Origin: a virus
Virus record (IMG/VR): IMGVR_UViG_3300045988_118310
Coordinates: 1 to 64,000 of that record
Direction: 5' to 3' (one strand)
Length of the DNA stretch: 64,000 bases
Shown: piece by piece, positions 1-41,178 of the stretch
Position numbering within the stretch: position 1 is the stretch's first letter
Layout of the letters: each line of letters starts with the position of its first letter
Notes under the pieces: model-generated
Databases searched by the model: none
Seen by the model: only the letters and a program-made list of their open reading frames with translations
What the model was told of the DNA's origin: nothing
Position numbers and translations under genes: made by a program

Positions 1-202
1 AAACCAGACGGGCTCTTTTGCACACGAAGCGGAATATCGCCTGTGCGGTGTCGGCCGGCAGCTGTGAAGGAGAACAGCCGGAGGAGGATGGCGGACACCC
101 GATATTCCAAAAAACAAGAAGAAAAAGATTTCATGATCCAGAAGGGTCTTGCCCTTTCTGTAACCATATTGTAACTCTTTTGAAAGACTTTTGCAATAGC
201 TT

Positions 203-2739: not shown

Positions 2740-3213
2740 TTACGAGTATCTGTAGCAATTCCAAACTTCGTCAGACTTATTGTAAATATTGTCTGGGTGC
2801 ATCCCAATTTTTAAGGCCAATTGATTTGATGCCACATTATCTTTTCGAGTTATCCACAACAATGGTTTATTATCAAAATCGGATCTATGAGCTGTATACC
2901 ATTTAATTGCCGATTGTGCAAGATTCAAAGCGTATCCATGTCCTCGATAGTTTTTATCGTTTCTTGTTGCAACCGCTACATCTATATATGAACATTCTTC
3001 AAACAGGTCAAAAAACGCGACAGGAGTATCGTTACTAATTTTCAAGAATCTTTTTATAACATGTTCTCCTGCTGGAATTGTTAGATATTCGTCATTGTAA
3101 ACACCAAGCATCCGCTGTTCCTCTGAAGATAGTGTTTTAACGATGTCATCTACAAGTGGTTTTGTTTTTGCTGTAGCTTTTGCTCTTTGTATATAAATAT
3201 TATTTTCGCACAT
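2740..3213 (-). CDS. GNAT-family N-acetyltransferase
   Basis: RGHGYALNL ... ASNQLALKIG acetyl-CoA-binding pattern (R/Q-x-x-G-x-G/A). Confidence 0.5.
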   Translation of the reverse strand: MCENNIYIQRAKATAKTKPLVDDIVKTLSSEEQRMLGVYNDEYLTIPAGEHVIKRFLKISNDTPVAFFDLFEECSYIDVAVATRNDKNYRGHGYALNLAQSAIKWYTAHRSDFDNKPLLWITRKDNVASNQLALKIGMHPDNIYNKSDEVWNCYRYS

Positions 3214-7254: not shown

Positions 7255-7567
7255 TCTCCTTTAAATACCGCCATACATCAGGCACTTTTAAATAAGTAAG
7301 CCCCTTGTCTGGCATCCAATTTCCTTTCATTGAATACCACACTCTAACTTCTCGTTCTTTGTATTTTGCCATGACTATGCTACAAGGCTTCGGAAGATTT
7401 ATCGTCGGGACATTCCAATCCGTAAGTTTTACCTCCGGCCAGTCAATTCGAGTTCCACACTGACCGCAGTAGCTATTTCGGTTTCCATCTTCGTTATAAA
7501 GATACTCGCCGCTGCCACAATACTGGCAAGCGATAATGCCTTCCTCTACAAAAGGATTGTTAATCAT
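7229..7567 (-). CDS. hypothetical zinc-ribbon protein
   Basis: CQYCGS...CGQCG; internal start chosen. Confidence 0.35.
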   Translation of the reverse strand: MINNPFVEEGIIACQYCGSGEYLYNEDGNRNSYCGQCGTRIDWPEVKLTDWNVPTINLPKPCSIVMAKYKEREVRVWYSMKGNWMPDKGLTYLKVPDVWRYLKENEREESDP

Positions 7568-37779: not shown

Positions 37780-37882
37780 AATCTCAGAGAATAAGCAAAA
37801 AACAATAGACGTATCAACGTCATATTATTTCAACGCTTATAAAACAAAAGTTCTAGCGGGTTTTATGTACGCCCTTTCGGGC

Positions 37883-37963
37883 TGGTGGGACATGTCGGAC
37901 TTGAACCGTGATACATATGCTCAGTTATGAGCTGAGTTCTCTAACCAATTGAGATAATGTCCC
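37883..37963 (-). tRNA. tRNA-Met/Ile2-like (anticodon CAT), CCA encoded; T-stem imperfect
   Basis: acceptor GGGACAT/ATGTCCC, D-stem TCTC/GAGA, anticodon stem CTCAG/CTGAG loop CTCATAA; GGTTCAAGTCC T-arm. Confidence 0.55.
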
Positions 37964-38094
37964 ATAAAAACCAGTTAAATAGCTGCAACTATTCAACTGG
38001 GCACCTTCCTTATAAAACGCTATTGCATCTATATCATATAGACGAGGAAGGAATAACAGCGATGCACATTTCCTATATCTCGCCCCTTTCGGGG

Positions 38095-38152
38095 TGGTAT
38101 CTCGCACAGGCGCGGCCAGATCTGACCGCCAAAGATCCTACCCATACGAGAT
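38095..38152 (-). ncRNA. 57-nt tRNA-minihelix-like element ending in CCA, directly after tRNA-Gly
   Basis: TCTCGTA/TGCGAGA terminal pairing, internal AGATCT palindromes, ends ...TACCA followed by a CCCCGAAAGGGG hairpin. Confidence 0.3.
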
Positions 38153-38227
38153 TGGAGCAGCGAAAGGTAGTCGAAACCTCATCCTCAGCTTGGAAGGCTG
38201 ATGTACTAGCCGTTGTACGACCGCCGC
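38153..38227 (-). tRNA. tRNA-Gly (anticodon TCC), CCA encoded
   Basis: cloverleaf: acceptor GCGGCGG/TCGCTGC (2 GU), D-stem GTAC/GTAC, anticodon loop CTTCCAA, T-arm GAGGT-TTCGACT-ACCTT. Confidence 0.7.
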
Positions 38228-38233
38228 ATGAAA

Positions 38234-38284
38234 ACCCAGCTTACAAAACACTACTGCACCATCACTGGCGAGCTGGGAATAATA
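38234..38284 (-). repeat. R1: conserved ~50-nt inverted-repeat spacer element (CCCAGCT...AGCTGGGAATAAT) upstream of tRNA-Gly
   Basis: shares acccagcttac...cactgc...gagctgggaataat with R2. Confidence 0.4.
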
Positions 38285-38328
38285 GTGGTCAAAGGAGTTC
38301 AACCATGAACAACAACGATTCATGACCG

Positions 38329-38410
38329 TGGTGCGGATAGTGGGCATCGAACCCACACGCCGAAGCACCAGATCCTAAATCTGGCGTGTCTGCCATTCCA
38401 CCATATCCGC
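38329..38410 (-). tRNA. tRNA-Leu (anticodon TAG), long variable arm, CCA encoded
   Basis: acceptor GCGGATA/TATCCGC, anticodon loop TTTAGGA, variable arm TGCTTCGGCGTG, T-arm GTGGG-TTCGATG-CCCAC. Confidence 0.75.
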
Positions 38411-38415
38411 ATAAA

Positions 38416-38486
38416 TTGCGCCAACAGGGGTCGAACCTGTGATGGAGGAGTCAAAGTCCTCTGCCTTACCGCTTGGCGATGGCGCA
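38416..38486 (-). tRNA. tRNA-Gln (anticodon TTG), no encoded CCA
   Basis: acceptor TGCGCCA/TGGCGCA (U1-A72 as in bacterial tRNA-Gln), anticodon stem GAGGA/TCCTC loop CTTTGAC, T-arm ACAGG-TTCGACC-CCTGT. Confidence 0.7.
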
Positions 38487-38495
38487 TCATATACC

Positions 38496-38549
38496 CAGCT
38501 TACTACGCCACACTGCTCCGTTTCCAGAGAGCTGGGAATAATGTGAATG
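38496..38549 (-). repeat. R2: second copy of the inverted-repeat spacer element, upstream of tRNA-Gln
   Basis: tacccagcttac...cactgctcc...gagctgggaataat. Confidence 0.4.
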
Positions 38550-38571
38550 AAAAATTCTACATGCCCTTTCG

Positions 38572-38647
38572 GGCTGGTCCGAGTGACAGGTCATGATCCT
38601 GCGGCCTCATGTTCCCAAAACACGCGCTCTTCCAACTGAGCTACACC
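38572..38647 (-). tRNA. tRNA-Pro (anticodon TGG), CCA encoded, atypical T-loop
   Basis: acceptor CCGGGTG/CACTCGG, D-arm GCTC-AGTTGGAA-GAGC, anticodon loop TTTGGGA, T-loop ATCATGA. Confidence 0.55.
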
Positions 38648-38654
38648 CGGATAT

Positions 38655-38741
38655 AAATGCCACCGAGGAGAGTTGAACTCCTAATCTCTTACGAGCGTTC
38701 CGGTTTAAGCGGAAAGTGTATGCCATTTCCACCACGGTGGC
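38655..38741 (-). tRNA. tRNA-Leu (anticodon TAA), long variable arm, no encoded CCA
   Basis: acceptor GCCACCG/CGGTGGC, anticodon stem TTCCG/CGGAA loop CTTAAAC, T-arm AGGAG-TTCAACT-CTCCT. Confidence 0.7.
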
Positions 38742-38821
38742 ACATCAACACTGTCTGTCCAGCAGTCAACCGTCTTTCCGATTTTGCCAATATTCTAGCA
38801 CTTGCCCATCTGCAAATGGGT

Positions 38822-38900
38822 TGGTAGCCCTACTCAGATTTGAACTGAGAATTTTACAAGGTTTGAGCTTGTTGCGTATGCCTAATTCCGCCATAGGGCC
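38822..38900 (-). tRNA. tRNA of uncertain identity (anticodon CAA, short variable arm, large D-loop), CCA encoded
   Basis: acceptor GGCCCTA/TAGGGCT, anticodon stem ACAAG/CTTGT loop CTCAAAC, T-arm CTCAG-TTCAAAT-CTGAG. Confidence 0.5.
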
Positions 38901-38967
38901 ATAATGCCGGTCTTTCCCGGCTGTCAGCTCACAATGAGCAATTTTCGGAGGAAGAAAAATGTCTTAG

Positions 38968-41178
38968 TTATTCGTGCCGATTCTCATAGAATTCATTCCG
39001 AAGCTGAATGATGTTCTTTTTGCAGAACGATTCGTGATCGGCATCATTCTGTTGTCTCATCCATCCGTAGAAGTTGTTGTCTTCTGCGGTGAACAATTTT
39101 GAGGTGTGTTCGTAGTATCCACGCTTTTGAACGCTCTGCATAACACTACGCAAGAATTTCCAGTGCTTATAGCAAGGAAGCTTCAGCTTAAACATGAAAT
39201 TGTTGTTATCTCTCAAAACAAAGCCTTCAACGTGTTTAAAGCCATGATGCAGATAGTTCTCGTTCATGACTTCCTCGTACCAAGGATAGAATTCACGCCA
39301 GTTCTCAAAGGTCTTAACCTTCTCCTTAATCTGCAGATGACACTTCTCGGCTACACGCTTCAAATCATCATAATCCATTACACTGAAATTCATATCATTT
39401 GCAATAATATCCAGCAAAACAACGTGCGGTTTCTTATATTCGATGATATGCGCATCATTCACAGGATCAATCACCTCGAAGATGATGGAGCCATTCTCTT
39501 TTGCAAATTCTTTCAGATTCTTACGGTCTTCATCAGAAGTCGTATCCATGAGAATCTTTCGAAACATATCTGCAAAAGGCCCTTCAGGAGTGGATTTACT
39601 TGCAATGAACAGACTATCCTGTTCTGCATCATACGAAATGATACCAAGAAATCCGTTCTCTTTTAGATATGCAGTCACCGGGAACTTCAAAGTGTTCTGT
39701 AGGTTTCCAATTCTCGTTTCATTCCGCTCATCAACCGCAAAGAACTTATCATAGCTTCGAGCTACAATCTTATTCGTCTTTGTGTTAATGAACAATCCCC
39801 TTGCTTTGGTAGAAACCTCATCCCAGTGCTTCTTATAAAATGCTTCACGAGAGAAGTTGAAAGAAGAAATATCTCCGAATCGCTTCTCAAACACATATTT
39901 GCTTTGACGCATCTTACTAACAAGTTCTGCGTTATCGAACTCAGTTTTCAGTTCAACGACAGTTTCAGTCTTTGGCTCCTCTTTTTGGAACACATCGTTC
40001 TTGGTTTCTACACACTTGATTGACTGACCGTGTTCAAGTTCCACGCAACGAAGATATCCACCAAACTCGATTTTTCCTTCGAGGTTGTAGCACTGATGCC
40101 CCATATCAATAGGAACATCCTGCACATTTCGATGTCCAAAGATTTGGAAACATCCGTCAGGCATCTTTTGTTCCCATGACTCTGCGACAGTGAGCATGTC
40201 AGAGTAGCGGCCAACACCCTTTACCATCTGGTCAGTAGACACGAACGGTAGAAATTCAGGCAAATAACTCAAACCACCATGGCTAACGAAGTATCTTTTA
40301 TCATCGTAATCAAAATAGGAGCACTGTCCTACTCTTGAATAGACCTTACGAGCCGTATTATGGTCAATCCCTGCTTTAAAAAGCTGCGGACGAGTGTAGT
40401 TTGTAAATTCCTCACTCTGAACCGGCTCGTCATGACCCCACTTGTTTAGCCACCGTTCATGATTTCCTTCAAGGAGAATTACATTCTTCCGATTATTGTC
40501 TACAACATCACAAAGGAACTTGAACATCTCTACATTTTCAATTCCACGATCCAGATAATCGCCAACAAAAATGTACAGCTCATCGTCCTTCAGGTCTCCA
40601 AGGTACTCTTTCAGGCAACTGTAGCATCCATGCACATCACCGATGATATGAATTTTGCTCCAATTATTAAAATCCTGCGGAACATAGTTCAATTTTTCAA
40701 GGACATTGACATCCGACGAAAGCACAGTCACTCCAGACGGAATTTTTTGTGTTGCGAATCGTGCATACATCTTATCAATGACAGCATCTGGAACTCTCTT
40801 CAGTGGGGCACGGAGCGAATTGCGCCGCTTGCACTCATCAATCGGCAAGCCCGTCATGTCAATGATGTACATTCTGTACCTGTACTGCTTGGCGAGGTTC
40901 TTGTAGCGATTGATTTCGACCGTTTTAGAATTCGTTGCATCGATCACGGTGAACTCACCATGAGACATCCGAACCTCCAACAGCTTAAAGAGCATATCCC
41001 AGACAACATCATCGTTCTGGGGAGAGATTTCCATTGTGCCAGCCGGGGTTTCCTGACCACCCTGGCACATAAGACGAATCGTATCTGCACTAAGCGTATA
41101 CTTTTCCAGATCATGCTCTTTAATATAGGGGGACTTCCCGCATCCGGGTGCTCCACGGAAAAGAAGCAAAGTTCTCAT
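38968..41178 (-). CDS. Pnkp-like polynucleotide kinase - metallophosphatase - ligase (RNA repair enzyme)
   Basis: P-loop GAPGCGKS + VIDATN (kinase); GDVHG, GDYLDRG, GNHE (calcineurin-like phosphatase); KENG, FEVID, EGFVL, FKLK (nucleotidyltransferase ligase motifs I, III, IV, V). Confidence 0.75.
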   Translation of the reverse strand: MRTLLLFRGAPGCGKSPYIKEHDLEKYTLSADTIRLMCQGGQETPAGTMEISPQNDDVVWDMLFKLLEVRMSHGEFTVIDATNSKTVEINRYKNLAKQYRYRMYIIDMTGLPIDECKRRNSLRAPLKRVPDAVIDKMYARFATQKIPSGVTVLSSDVNVLEKLNYVPQDFNNWSKIHIIGDVHGCYSCLKEYLGDLKDDELYIFVGDYLDRGIENVEMFKFLCDVVDNNRKNVILLEGNHERWLNKWGHDEPVQSEEFTNYTRPQLFKAGIDHNTARKVYSRVGQCSYFDYDDKRYFVSHGGLSYLPEFLPFVSTDQMVKGVGRYSDMLTVAESWEQKMPDGCFQIFGHRNVQDVPIDMGHQCYNLEGKIEFGGYLRCVELEHGQSIKCVETKNDVFQKEEPKTETVVELKTEFDNAELVSKMRQSKYVFEKRFGDISSFNFSREAFYKKHWDEVSTKARGLFINTKTNKIVARSYDKFFAVDERNETRIGNLQNTLKFPVTAYLKENGFLGIISYDAEQDSLFIASKSTPEGPFADMFRKILMDTTSDEDRKNLKEFAKENGSIIFEVIDPVNDAHIIEYKKPHVVLLDIIANDMNFSVMDYDDLKRVAEKCHLQIKEKVKTFENWREFYPWYEEVMNENYLHHGFKHVEGFVLRDNNNFMFKLKLPCYKHWKFLRSVMQSVQKRGYYEHTSKLFTAEDNNFYGWMRQQNDADHESFCKKNIIQLRNEFYENRHE

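What the first reader, a model, noticed from the sequence alone, without database searches (positions are those of the whole stretch)
37871..38920. Seven-tRNA array with post-CCA GNRA hairpins, a 57-nt CCA-ending minihelix and two copies of a conserved spacer stem-loop
Minus-strand tRNAs: Met(CAT), Gly(TCC), Leu(TAG), Gln(TTG), Pro(TGG), Leu(TAA) and one with anticodon CAA. The 3' CCA of tRNA-Met and tRNA-Pro is abutted by an identical GCCCGAAAGGGC hairpin (GAAA tetraloop), and the CAA tRNA by ACCCATTTGCAGATGGGC. tRNA-Gly is followed directly by a 57-nt element that also ends in ...ACCA plus a CCCCGAAAGGGG hairpin. Two ~50-nt elements (R1 38234-38284, R2 38496-38549) with an inverted repeat CCCAGCT...AGCTGGGAATAAT precede tRNA-Gly and tRNA-Gln. 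None of this is standard tRNA structure, so it may be processing or protection signals, or small RNAs.
Basis: seen in the sequence. Interest (0 to 1): 0.55.

Follow-up and report, generated by a model that had tools for sequence, protein, structure and literature searches.

The report
Phage tRNA operon with structured spacers
A gut-phage cluster of seven tRNA genes is punctuated by three kinds of conserved folded RNA, one of which is an undescribed double pseudoknot that also sits in front of a chromosomal tRNA gene of the likely host, Faecalibacterium.

Summary
Seven minus-strand tRNAs are real, and their boundaries end at CCA, so they do not absorb the hairpins.

Comparison with over 150 related gut-phage contigs and 11 Faecalibacterium genomes shows three conserved RNA-level modules.

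1. **R element.** The "spacer stem-loop" is a 53-58 nt double pseudoknot: P1 7 bp, AUU, P2 7 bp, P3 hairpin, C, P1', 7-nt linker, P2'. The window holds three copies, not two. About 98% of cells are paired, and 13 of 19 pairs show compensatory changes. It sits 5-9 nt upstream of a tRNA 5' end. It also precedes the chromosomal tRNA-Leu(UAA) of Faecalibacterium. It has the HDV/theta-ribozyme strand order but lacks their catalytic features, and it is not in Rfam.

2. **Minihelix.** It is 58 nt: a 13-bp helix plus ACCA, capped by a small pseudoknot. It always directly follows a tRNA's CCA.

3. **Post-CCA hairpins.** They start exactly at +1 and their stems covary. The GNRA loop is not conserved.

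The most likely role is punctuation and end formation of a polycistronic tRNA precursor. This is inferred; no transcript data exist. R could instead be a new ribozyme or aptamer.

The parts
38968..41178 (-). Context gene directly upstream: 736-aa fusion of polynucleotide kinase, metallophosphoesterase and Rnl1-type RNA ligase (tRNA-repair type enzyme).
   Evidence: Pfam AAA_33, Metallophos and RNA_lig_T4_1. phrog_8238 RNA ligase, E=1.7e-223. The ligase domain matches solved tRNA ligase and T4 Rnl1 chains.
38906..38921 (-). Leader hairpin GCCGG-GAAAGA-CCGGC, 5 nt upstream of the first tRNA.
   Evidence: Sequence. Relatives keep the GAAAGA loop with a different stem, GCTCG/CGAGC in L087.
38822..38900 (-). 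tRNA with anticodon CAA, 79 nt, short variable region, CCA encoded.
   Evidence: ARAGORN. Rfam tRNA 52.2 bits.
38804..38821 (-). Post-CCA hairpin (CCCAU/AUGGG stem).
   Evidence: Relatives covary: ACCCAT/ATGGGT, GCTCAT/ATGAGC, ACTCAT/ATGAGT.
38658..38741 (-). tRNA-Leu(TAA), no encoded CCA. Upstream member of a dimer, with a 7-nt gap to tRNA-Pro by these Rfam coordinates (6 nt by ARAGORN).
38575..38650 (-). tRNA-Pro(TGG), CCA encoded.
38563..38574 (-). Post-CCA hairpin GCCC-GAAA-GGGC, starting at +1.
   Evidence: -8.2 kcal/mol, z=-3.0. Relatives have GTCC/GGGC, GTTGG/CCAAC and GTGGA/TCCAC at the same offset.
38494..38546 (-). R2 double pseudoknot: TCACATT-ATT-CCCAGCT-C..hairpin..G-C-AGTGTGG-CGTAGTA-AGCTGGG. 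It ends 7 nt before tRNA-Gln.
   Evidence: Covariance model 69.3 bits (this copy was in the model's training alignment). Structure counts.
38416..38486 (-). tRNA-Gln(TTG), no encoded CCA, 5-nt gap to tRNA-Leu(TAG).
38329..38410 (-). tRNA-Leu(TAG), CCA encoded.
38300..38328 (-). Weak trailer hairpin after Leu(TAG). Not significant in the window on its own.
   Evidence: z=+0.5. Relatives carry a different hairpin, AATGGT/ACCGTT, in this trailer.
38235..38287 (-). R1 double pseudoknot: CACTATT-ATT-CCCAGCT-C..GTGA..G-C-AGTAGTG-TTTTGTA-AGCTGGG. It ends 7 nt before tRNA-Gly.
   Evidence: Covariance model 75.3 bits (this copy was in the model's training alignment). Structure counts.
38153..38227 (-). 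tRNA-Gly(TCC), CCA encoded.
38095..38152 (-). tRNA-like minihelix, 58 nt. It has a continuous 13-bp helix (nt 1-13 with 42-54) plus 3' ACCA. The 28-nt cap forms a small pseudoknot (15-20 with 30-35; 24-27 with 38-41). It starts at +1 after the Gly CCA.
   Evidence: -27.8 kcal/mol, z=-4.2. 97.5% of cells paired against 27-52% in slid controls; 6 pairs changed on both sides. 115 instances, always after NCCA. Not called a tRNA by ARAGORN or Rfam.
38083..38094 (-). Hairpin CCCC-GAAA-GGGG abutting the minihelix ACCA.
38004..38061 (-).
   Evidence: Covariance model 49.3 bits, E=2e-9 (this copy was in the model's training alignment). Found independently by the structural scan.
37971..38000 (-). Stable 13-bp leader hairpin between R3 and tRNA-Met.
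   Evidence: -16.4 kcal/mol, z=-5.5. Flagged as terminator-like, but the U run is not conserved in relatives.
37883..37963 (-). tRNA-Met(CAT), 81 nt, CCA encoded.
37871..37882 (-). Post-CCA hairpin GCCC-GAAA-GGGC, starting at +1.
   Evidence: -8.1 kcal/mol, z=-2.6. One relative has GTCC/GGAC, changed on both sides. Loops vary: GATA, AATA, CAAA.
37808..37821 (-). Terminator-like hairpin followed by a T-rich tail. Probable end of the tRNA operon.

Best explanation
The region is a phage tRNA operon. The phage most likely infects Faecalibacterium. The operon is transcribed as a polycistronic precursor downstream of a kinase-phosphoesterase-ligase gene. Its spacers are conserved folded RNA modules that punctuate the precursor and help form tRNA ends.

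**1. Minihelix.** It mimics the acceptor/T-arm stack of a tRNA: a 13-bp helix plus a single-stranded ACCA. RNase P would cut at its 5' side. Because it begins at +1 after tRNA-Gly, that single cut would release a finished Gly-CCA 3' end.

**2. Post-CCA hairpins.** They begin exactly at +1, which leaves only NCCA single-stranded. They probably insulate tRNA folding, block exonucleases, and mark a one-step endonucleolytic cut right after CCA. This would resemble the terminator stem-loops of the E. coli proline tRNAs.

**3. CCA-less tRNAs.** Leu-TAA and Gln are upstream members of dimers with 5-7 nt gaps, as in T4 dimeric precursors. They would need trailer removal and CCA addition.

**4. R double pseudoknot.** It is a 5'-leader module shared with the host's tRNA-Leu(UAA) gene. 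It sits a fixed 5-9 nt before the RNase P site. There it most likely sets a short defined leader, protects the 5' side, or modulates RNase P access.

**Shown:** the sequences, structures, covariation, positions and the host copy.
**Inferred:** every enzymatic step.
For: **tRNAs and boundaries.**. The array order is conserved in 80 related loci.

**R element.**
- 194 copies and 62 distinct sequences in the first 81 loci.
- 98.5% and 98.2% of cells paired, against 32-47% in slid controls, with 13 of 19 pairs changed on both sides.
- P2 was not part of the covariance model's structure and is still 99.7% paired.
- The frequent U-G pair in P1 (35 of 50) argues for RNA, on this strand.
- The R 3' end lies 7 nt from a tRNA 5' end in 205 of 331 copies. 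The distance to the upstream tRNA varies from 2 to 107 nt.
- R occurs in 11 Faecalibacterium genomes, 5-9 nt upstream of a solitary tRNA-Leu(UAA). The locus is syntenic and chromosomal: IMPDH, NAPRTase, sigma-70 promoter, leader, R, tRNA, terminator.

**Minihelix.**
- The 13-bp helix is 100% paired, with 4 pairs changed on both sides. The pseudoknot stem is 100% paired.
- 115 instances, always directly after NCCA, behind 9 different tRNA 3' ends.
- ACCA is invariant.

**Hairpins.**
- 41 of 98 distinct CCA trailers have an offset-0 hairpin, against 4.8% by chance.
- Many of the other trailers are followed at once by a minihelix, an R, a ~200-nt element or the next tRNA.
- Stems covary while loops vary.

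**Precedents.**
- RNase E cuts immediately after CCA and removes the terminator stem-loop of E. coli proK, proL and proM (PMC5291269).
- RNase P cleaves pseudoknot substrates that carry a 3' RCCA (PMC12710915, abstract).
Against: - No RNA-seq or end mapping exists for this phage or for the host leader.
- The nuclease that would cut between CCA and a 4-bp hairpin is unknown. The likely host is a Firmicute, a group that generally lacks RNase E (general knowledge, not checked for Faecalibacterium).
- A stable hairpin at +1 would hinder the exonucleolytic 3' trimming that CCA-encoding tRNAs use in Bacillus (my own knowledge).
- R has 12 invariant nucleotides clustered at its three-helix junction. 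That is more than a passive spacer or roadblock needs. It points to a specific partner, ligand or chemistry that this explanation does not name.
- One R (L099) has no tRNA downstream.
- The covariation in the minihelix rests on closely related sequences, with 92% mean identity.
Confidence: 0.55

Rival explanations
1. R is a self-cleaving ribozyme. It would be a new variant or class with the HDV-like strand order, cutting at the 5' edge of P1 to separate processing units. The neighbouring kinase-phosphoesterase-ligase would heal the resulting 2',3'-cyclic phosphate and 5'-OH ends.
For: - R has the same strand order and the same 7-bp P1 and 7-bp P2 as theta ribozymes.
- Theta ribozymes are minimal HDV-like ribozymes next to tRNAs in gut phages (PMC10879173).
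- In 6 instances R starts 2 nt after a Pro CCA.
- Invariant junction nucleotides include an unpaired C.
- The adjacent enzyme acts on exactly the end types that ribozymes produce.
Against: - R has no 3-bp P3 with an L3 loop and no P1.1. The hairpin is 5+ bp with a tetraloop.
- The position equivalent to the catalytic C of J4/2 is C or U. The window's R1 and R3 have no C at all in the linker. A C-to-U change inactivates HDV-like ribozymes.
- R is coupled to the downstream tRNA, not to an upstream tRNA 3' end.
- No Rfam ribozyme model matches, even at E<=10.
Confidence: 0.15
2. R is a ligand- or protein-binding aptamer in the tRNA leader. When folded or bound, it controls RNase P access 5-9 nt away. 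That would regulate maturation of rare-codon tRNAs such as the host tRNA-Leu(UAA).
For: - Strict short spacing to the RNase P site.
- Twelve invariant nucleotides at the junction of three helices, while the helices themselves covary freely.
- Conservation across Faecalibacterium species in the leader of a single tRNA gene with its own promoter and terminator.
- preQ1-II and preQ1-III aptamers use a similar three-helix-junction pseudoknot pocket with an unpaired C, junction adenines and a U-A-U floor. Class III was solved from Faecalibacterium (PMC11625349).
Against: - No expression platform such as a terminator or SD sequence is present.
- Regulation of tRNA 5' processing by an aptamer has no precedent that I know of.
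- The Rfam preQ1-II and preQ1-III models do not match.
- The strand order differs from preQ1-III: P1, P2, P1', P3, P4, P2'.
- R lacks the U-rich junction and the A-U-rich P2 that form the base triples.
Confidence: 0.2
3. The minihelix is a functional small RNA in its own right, not merely a cutting guide. It could be a decoy for host tRNA-targeting defence nucleases, or a substrate for CCA-adding or charging enzymes.
For: - It has an elaborate conserved pseudoknot cap and an invariant ACCA.
- It moves as a module behind different tRNAs in at least three phage groups.
- It sits next to a tRNA-repair type enzyme.
- T4 carries stable RNAs of unknown function in its tRNA cluster (my own knowledge).
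Against: - No known identity elements were recognised.
- Its constant position at +1 after a CCA is explained more simply by end formation.
- There is no expression data.
Confidence: 0.15
4. The post-CCA hairpins are transcription terminators, and the spacers hold internal promoters, so each unit is transcribed separately.
For: - GC-rich stems lie right after genes.
- TAGAAT lies 7 nt before R2.
- The host R-tRNA unit has its own promoter and terminator.
Against: - No U tract follows the hairpins.
- Only 16-21 nt separate hairpin and R, which is too short for a promoter.
- The TAGAAT is not conserved in relatives.
- The promoter scan finds nothing in the array.
- In the host, R lies about 70 nt downstream of the promoter.
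Confidence: 0.08
5. The spacer elements are non-functional leftovers, such as degenerate tRNAs, selfish repeats or DNA-level protein sites.
For: - The minihelix looks like a tRNA stripped of two arms.
- R is repeated and mosaic between lineages.
Against: - Compensatory changes keep the RNA helices intact across more than 50 distinct R sequences and 21 minihelix sequences.
- G-U pairs are frequent, and they would be mismatches on the other strand or in DNA.
- R is conserved in a syntenic chromosomal locus across Faecalibacterium species.
Confidence: 0.03

Closest known systems
Theta ribozymes (minimal HDV-like ribozymes next to tRNAs in gut phages; Kienbeck et al. 2024, PMC10879173)
   Same: - Gut Caudoviricetes and tRNA arrays.
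- About 55 nt.
- Nested double-pseudoknot strand order P1, P2, P3, P3', P1', P2'.
- 7-bp P1, 7-bp P2 and a 2-3 nt J1/2.
   Different: - R has a 5+ bp P3 with a tetraloop instead of a 3-bp P3 with L3 and P1.1.
- R has no conserved catalytic C.
- Only 7 nt separate P1' and P2'.
- R is coupled to the 5' end of the downstream tRNA rather than to the 3' end of an upstream, mostly CCA-less, tRNA.
- R is also present in a bacterial chromosome. The theta paper found 12 bacterial hits, none near a tRNA.
preQ1-II / preQ1-III riboswitch aptamers (class III solved from Faecalibacterium prausnitzii)
   Same: - A pseudoknot with an embedded hairpin forms a three-helix junction.
- The conserved nucleotides include an unpaired C, adenines just before a helix, and U-A pairs at helix ends.
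- Same bacterial genus.
   Different: - Different strand order.
- No U-rich junction or A-U-rich P2 for base triples.
- No SD or terminator platform.
- Lies in front of tRNAs, not queT/queCDEF.
- Rfam models do not match.
RNase P minihelix and tRNA-like substrates (acceptor/T-arm minihelices, pseudoknot substrates with 3' RCCA, mascRNA, T4 stable RNAs in the tRNA cluster)
   Same: - A 12-13 bp helix with a single-stranded RCCA 3' end.
- Placed so that a 5' cut also makes the neighbour's 3' end.
- Lies inside a phage tRNA cluster (PMC12710915 abstract; T4 and mascRNA from my own knowledge).
   Different: - The cap is a small H-type pseudoknot rather than a T-loop.
- Only 58 nt.
- Not recognised by tRNA models.
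- Cleavage has not been tested.
Terminator stem-loops abutting CCA in E. coli proK/proL/proM (Mohanty et al. 2016, PMC5291269)
   Same: A stem-loop follows the encoded CCA. In E. coli a single endonucleolytic cut immediately after CCA removes it and gives the mature end without exonucleases.
   Different: - The stems here are only 4-7 bp, have no U tract and lie inside an operon.
- The E. coli enzyme is RNase E, which Firmicutes generally lack (my own knowledge).
- The cut is not shown here.
T4-type dimeric tRNA precursors
   Same: A CCA-less upstream tRNA is separated by a few nucleotides from a downstream tRNA (Leu-TAA/Pro and Gln/Leu-TAG). A Gln-Leu-Gly order also occurs in T4 (my own knowledge).
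   Different: No sequence relationship was tested. The host is different.

Membership tests
tRNA (Rfam RF00005) | Cloverleaf scored by covariance model and ARAGORN | tested here: met
   Seven genes score 46-60 bits against a gathering threshold of 29. ARAGORN agrees. The minihelix and R do not score, even at E<=10.
HDV-like / theta ribozyme (for R) | Nested double-pseudoknot strand order with about 7-bp P1 and P2 | tested here: met
   P1 is 96.9-99.2% paired and P2 99.2-99.7% paired. Both covary.
HDV-like / theta ribozyme (for R) | 3-bp P3 with an L3 loop that forms P1.1 with two nucleotides after P1' | tested here: not met
   P3 is 5+ bp and closed by a 4-8 nt loop. The nucleotides after P1' (CU, CG, UU) cannot pair with it.
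HDV-like / theta ribozyme (for R) | Invariant catalytic cytosine at the first position of J4/2 | tested here: not met
   Linker consensus is YNNWGYA. Every C position also occurs as U. Window R1 (TTTTGTA) and R3 (TTTTATA) have no C.
HDV-like / theta ribozyme (for R) | Cleavage site within +/-5 nt of a tRNA 3' end (theta definition) | tested here: not met
   Distance to the upstream tRNA is 2-107 nt, and only 6 of 331 copies are at 2 nt. The distance to the downstream tRNA is fixed at 5-9 nt.
HDV-like / theta ribozyme (for R) | Self-scission | not testable with these tools
   Needs in vitro transcription and a cleavage assay.
preQ1-II/III riboswitch (for R) | Match to Rfam RF01054 / RF02680 | tested here: not met
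   No match at E<=10 in the window array or the host leader.
preQ1-II/III riboswitch (for R) | U-rich junction forming stacked U-A-U triples with an A-U-rich P2; order P1, P2, P1', P3, P4, P2' | tested here: not met
   R's J1/2 is AUU. P2 is CCCAGCU/AGCUGGG-like with one invariant U-A. The hairpin lies before P1'.
RNase P minihelix substrate (for the 58-nt element) | About 12-bp continuous helix ending in a single-stranded 3' RCCA | tested here: met
   13-bp helix 100% paired in 21 distinct sequences. ACCA is invariant.
RNase P minihelix substrate (for the 58-nt element) | Cleavage by RNase P at the 5' end of the helix | not testable with these tools
   Needs an enzyme assay or end mapping.
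Intrinsic terminator (for post-CCA hairpins) | GC-rich stem followed directly by a U tract | tested here: not met
   The stems are present, but none of the post-CCA hairpins is called by the terminator scan, and no T run follows them.
proK/L/M-type one-step 3' maturation (for post-CCA hairpins) | Stem-loop following the encoded CCA | tested here: met
   Offset 0 in 41 of 98 distinct trailers against 4.8% by chance.
proK/L/M-type one-step 3' maturation (for post-CCA hairpins) | Endonucleolytic cut immediately after CCA | not testable with these tools
   Needs 3' end mapping in nuclease mutants or in vitro assays.

The most novel reading that the evidence does not exclude
R is a previously unrecognised class of functional RNA. 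It would be either a self-cleaving ribozyme with an HDV-like fold but different catalytic residues, or a small-molecule or protein-sensing aptamer. It would act in cis on the 5' maturation of tRNAs, used by Faecalibacterium for its tRNA-Leu(UAA) and copied by its large phages in front of several of their tRNAs.
Probability: 0.3. Interest if true: 0.85.

Novelty: new variant of a known kind. Interest (0 to 1): 0.62.

Why it matters
Phage tRNA clusters are usually treated as plain lists of tRNAs. Here the spacers carry as much conserved structure as the genes.

- **R element.** It is a compact, strongly covarying pseudoknot found in hundreds of copies in gut phages and in a core gut bacterium. 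It matched no Rfam 15 family and no paper I could find. Its fixed place before the RNase P site makes regulated or assisted tRNA 5' maturation directly testable, and Faecalibacterium isolates can be cultured. It also looks like a sibling of the theta ribozymes with a different job. That bears on how small pseudoknotted RNAs are reused around tRNAs.
- **Minihelix and +1 hairpins.** They suggest how a phage gets exact CCA ends without host exonucleases.
- **Host assignment.** The shared R element and a near-identical tRNA-Leu assign this roughly 130-kb phage family to Faecalibacterium.

Tried and rejected
- **Generic structural scans.** Scans for any two crossing 7-bp helices were far too permissive once G-U pairs were allowed. 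They became useful only after adding the invariant nucleotides.
- **HDV/theta membership for R.** Rejected on L3/P1.1, the catalytic C and position.
- **preQ1-II/III membership for R.** Rejected on Rfam models, strand order and the lack of triples.
- **Second CGAGAT copy after the minihelix hairpin as an alternative partner of the 5' strand.** Rejected, because it does not covary when the 5' strand changes.
- **R3 plus the following 13-bp hairpin as a riboswitch with terminator.** Rejected, because the U run is absent in many relatives.
- **Internal promoters in the spacers.** Not supported.
- **ORFs overlapping the array on either strand.** No family match.
- **The 688-aa protein two genes upstream of the array.** No Pfam or PDB match, so no lead.
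- **One wasted viral scan.** The gap length was miscounted and the scan returned only chance hits.
- **GenBank phage collection.** No close relative, apart from one unannotated faecal contig.
- **Literature searches for a described tRNA-leader pseudoknot or phage tRNA minihelix.** Nothing found.
Full report
**1. What is there**

ARAGORN and the Rfam tRNA model (46-60 bits) agree on seven minus-strand tRNAs between 37883 and 38900. In transcription order they are CAA, Leu-TAA, Pro-TGG, Gln-TTG, Leu-TAG, Gly-TCC and Met-CAT.

- Five tRNAs encode CCA.
- Leu-TAA and Gln do not encode CCA. They lie 5-7 nt upstream of the next tRNA.
- The quoted hairpins and the CCA-ending element are present as described.
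- No ORF overlapping the array on either strand matches a protein family.

**2. Context**

All genes in the window run on the minus strand and belong to the replication and nucleotide-metabolism module of a large phage: family-B DNA polymerase, DnaB-like helicase, RecJ-like exonuclease, DNA ligase and NrdD.

- The gene ending 67 nt upstream of the first tRNA encodes a 736-aa fusion of polynucleotide kinase, metallophosphoesterase and Rnl1-type RNA ligase.
- The ligase domain matches solved tRNA ligases and T4 Rnl1. This is a tRNA-repair type enzyme.
- Downstream lies a C5 DNA methylase.
- GenBank phages hold no close relative.
- IMG/VR holds at least 80 contigs of about 125-138 kb with the same ligase at 87-94% identity, followed by the same tRNA order.

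**3. The spacer element R is a double pseudoknot with three copies**

The segment just upstream of the conserved ATT pairs with a segment after the inner hairpin, and this pairing covaries:

| 5' segment | 3' segment |
|---|---|
| CACTATT | AGTAGTG |
| TCACATT | AGTGTGA |
| GTACGTT | AGCGTGC |
| TCCTATT | AATAGGA |
| GTCAATT | AGTTGAC |
| CCTTATT | AATAAGG |

The layout is P1 (7), AUU, P2 (7), P3 hairpin, one C, P1' (7), a 7-nt linker (rarely 6 or 13), then P2' (7).

- A structural scan found a third, more divergent copy in the window at 38004-38061.
- On 38 distinct sequences, 98.5% of cells pair, against 33-46% when partners are slid. Thirteen of 19 pairs change on both sides.
- I chose these sequences partly by pairing, which biases the count. 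I therefore built a covariance model that encodes only P1 and P3 and used it to align 50 distinct copies. P2, which the model does not know as a helix, is 99.7% paired, with four pairs changed on both sides.
- The model finds exactly three copies in the 64-kb window, all in the array. Those three copies were in the alignment the model was built from, so their scores hold by construction; the informative result is that nothing else in the window matches.
- The invariant nucleotides cluster at the junction:
  - the last P1 pair, U-A
  - the AUU of J1/2
  - the C-G and U-A pairs at the P2 end
  - the C-G pair at the base of P3
  - the unpaired C
  - the A before P2'
- The frequent U-G pair in P1 shows selection on RNA of this strand.

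**4. Where R sits**

Across 331 instances (with some redundancy between fetched loci), the 3' end of R lies 7 nt from a tRNA 5' end in 205 cases and 5-9 nt in most others. In front of Met the gap is 39-41 nt, because an extra hairpin intervenes. The distance from the upstream tRNA varies from 2 to 107 nt. R is therefore a 5'-leader element of the downstream tRNA.

- A scan of one genome per bacterial species found R in 11 Faecalibacterium genomes and on one short contig labelled Collinsella.
- Each copy lies 5-9 nt upstream of a solitary tRNA-Leu(UAA).
- The locus is syntenic and chromosomal: IMPDH, nicotinate phosphoribosyltransferase, a TTGACA-17-TATCAT promoter, a leader of about 70 nt, R, the tRNA without CCA, and a terminator.
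- P3 covaries among species.
- Some relatives of the window phage carry a tRNA-Leu(TAA) that differs from the host gene by one base.
- Strong Shine-Dalgarno sequences fit a Firmicute host.
- I conclude that Faecalibacterium is the likely host and that R is shared between host and phage.

**5. Is R a known RNA?**

Rfam 15 gives no match for R at E<=10, in the phage or in the host.

- **Theta ribozymes.** R has the strand order and helix lengths of these minimal HDV-like ribozymes found next to tRNAs in gut phages. It fails the defining features:
  - It has no 3-bp P3 with L3 and P1.1.
  - It has no invariant cytosine in the J4/2 position. Two of the window's three copies have no C in the linker.
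  - It is not coupled to an upstream tRNA 3' end.
- **preQ1-II/III aptamers.** These share the idea of a conserved three-helix junction, and class III comes from Faecalibacterium. The strand order differs and the base-triple features are missing.
- Literature searches found no description of R.

**6. The minihelix**

The element after tRNA-Gly is 58 nt. Nucleotides 1-13 pair continuously with 42-54, followed by an invariant ACCA. Compensatory changes include C-G to U-A at two positions, and GG/CC to AC/GT in one divergent copy. The 28-nt cap forms two crossing helices. One of them shows GCGG/CCGC, GCAG/CTGC and GCTG/CAGC.

- The sequences are close (92% identity), so the covariation is limited but consistent: 97.5% paired against 27-52% slid.
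- A nested-only fold gives -27.8 kcal/mol, z=-4.2.
- In 115 instances it always starts directly after the NCCA of a tRNA.
- It follows nine different tRNA 3' ends in at least three phage groups. In MT835676 and in the 142-kb group it follows Leu-TAG.
- It is always followed by a 4-bp GC hairpin.
- A 12-13 bp helix with a 3' RCCA is the classical minimal RNase P substrate (established knowledge; see also PMC12710915).
- A cut at its 5' side would leave tRNA-Gly with a finished CCA end. This step is inferred.

**7. Post-CCA hairpins**

In relatives, the hairpin after Pro, Met/Ile and the CAA tRNA keeps its position at +1, while its sequence changes:

- Pro: GCCC/GGGC, GTCC/GGGC, GTTGG/CCAAC, GTGGA/TCCAC.
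- Met: GCCC/GGGC, GTCC/GGAC.
- CAA tRNA: ACCCAT/ATGGGT, GCTCAT/ATGAGC.

Loops are not kept as GNRA.

- Forty-one of 98 distinct CCA trailers have an offset-0 hairpin, against 4.8% of random positions. Relatedness inflates the significance.
- Many of the remaining trailers are followed at once by a minihelix, an R, a ~200-nt element or the next tRNA. The rule seems to be that an encoded CCA is usually abutted, within a few nucleotides, by a folded element.
- The hairpins lack U tracts and are not called as terminators.
- The closest precedent is E. coli proK/L/M. There RNase E removes the terminator stem-loop with one cut immediately after CCA (PMC5291269). Which enzyme would act in a Firmicute is unknown.

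**8. Model and its limits**

I read the array as five packed units:

1. hairpin, CAA tRNA, hairpin
2. Leu-TAA, Pro, hairpin
3. R2, Gln, Leu-TAG, trailer
4. R1, Gly, minihelix, hairpin
5. R3, hairpin, Met, hairpin, terminator

The expected steps are as follows. All are inferred:

- RNase P would cut at every tRNA 5' end and at the minihelix.
- The CCA-less tRNAs would need trailer removal and CCA addition.
- The +1 hairpins would keep NCCA free and define or protect the 3' end.
- R would give a short fixed leader next to a compact fold.

The junction conservation of R exceeds what a passive role needs. I therefore keep two active rivals for R, aptamer (0.2) and ribozyme (0.15), and one for the minihelix as a functional small RNA or decoy (0.15).

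**9. Verdict**

- The tRNA array itself is ordinary for a large phage with lower GC than its host.
- The R pseudoknot and the pseudoknot-capped minihelix are, as far as Rfam 15 and the searchable literature show, undescribed.
- I rate the finding a new variant of a known kind (structured processing modules flanking phage tRNAs). There is a fair chance that R is something more novel.

Noticed in passing
window 7-113 (-): Full-length match to the IMPDH RNA motif (RF02994): 126.9 bits against a gathering threshold of 95.4. In the Faecalibacterium locus that carries R, an IMPDH gene lies two genes upstream of the tRNA.
   Followed up: no
window 38968-41178 (-): A single 736-aa protein fuses polynucleotide kinase, metallophosphoesterase and Rnl1-type RNA ligase directly upstream of the tRNA array. 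This looks like a complete RNA end-healing and sealing enzyme, and it is conserved at 87-94% identity in 80+ contigs.
   Followed up: partly
L001 6366-6561; L012 7032-7233; L087 about 3030-3190: A conserved element of about 200 nt, closed by GAAATCAG...CTGATTTC, replaces the hairpin or spacer after some tRNAs in relatives. It has no Rfam match. It is absent from the window.
   Followed up: no
L001 7160-7386 (tRNA-like at 7292-7358): The 227-nt spacer between the second Gly type and Met in relatives holds a weak tRNA-like sequence (30-32 bits) with a 5-nt anticodon loop. ARAGORN does not call it.
   Followed up: no
window 38906-38921 and 38770-38785 (-): Two hairpins share a GAAAGA hexaloop (GCCGG/CCGGC and a weaker TCG/CGG stem), upstream of the CAA and Leu-TAA tRNAs. 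L087 keeps the loop with a GCTCG/CGAGC stem. This may be a fourth kind of leader element. The 8-mer count alone is not above chance in the window.
   Followed up: partly
window 37971-38000 (-): The arms of the 13-bp hairpin before tRNA-Met resemble the two P1 strands of R3: GAATAGTT against CAATAGCG, and GCTATTT against CGCTGTT. Alternative pairings with R3 are therefore possible. In the window the hairpin is followed by T5, but not in many relatives.
   Followed up: partly
window 38822-38900 and 37883-37963 (-): The CAA tRNA is only 79 nt with a short variable region, which is unusual for a bacterial tRNA-Leu. Relatives have 84-90 nt versions. The Met tRNA is 81 nt, with a long variable region and an imperfect T stem. 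Relatives have Ile-TAT or 92-nt Met at this position.
   Followed up: no
L099 6306-6359: On a 150-kb phage contig, one R copy has no tRNA downstream. After 7 nt comes a short sequence that ends in a terminator-like hairpin. R may therefore also lead a non-tRNA small RNA.
   Followed up: no
L087 2618-2749: Between two R copies lies a tRNA-like sequence (GTGGCTGTAGCTCAGATGGTAGAGC...GGTTCAAGTCCAACC...). ARAGORN does not call it. Its anticodon arm looks aberrant.
   Followed up: no
L143 (IMG/VR contig) against L200: The 'viral' contig L143 shares the host flank upstream of tRNA-Leu(UAA) and diverges right after the tRNA. This fits a prophage integrated at the 3' end of this tRNA gene.
   Followed up: no
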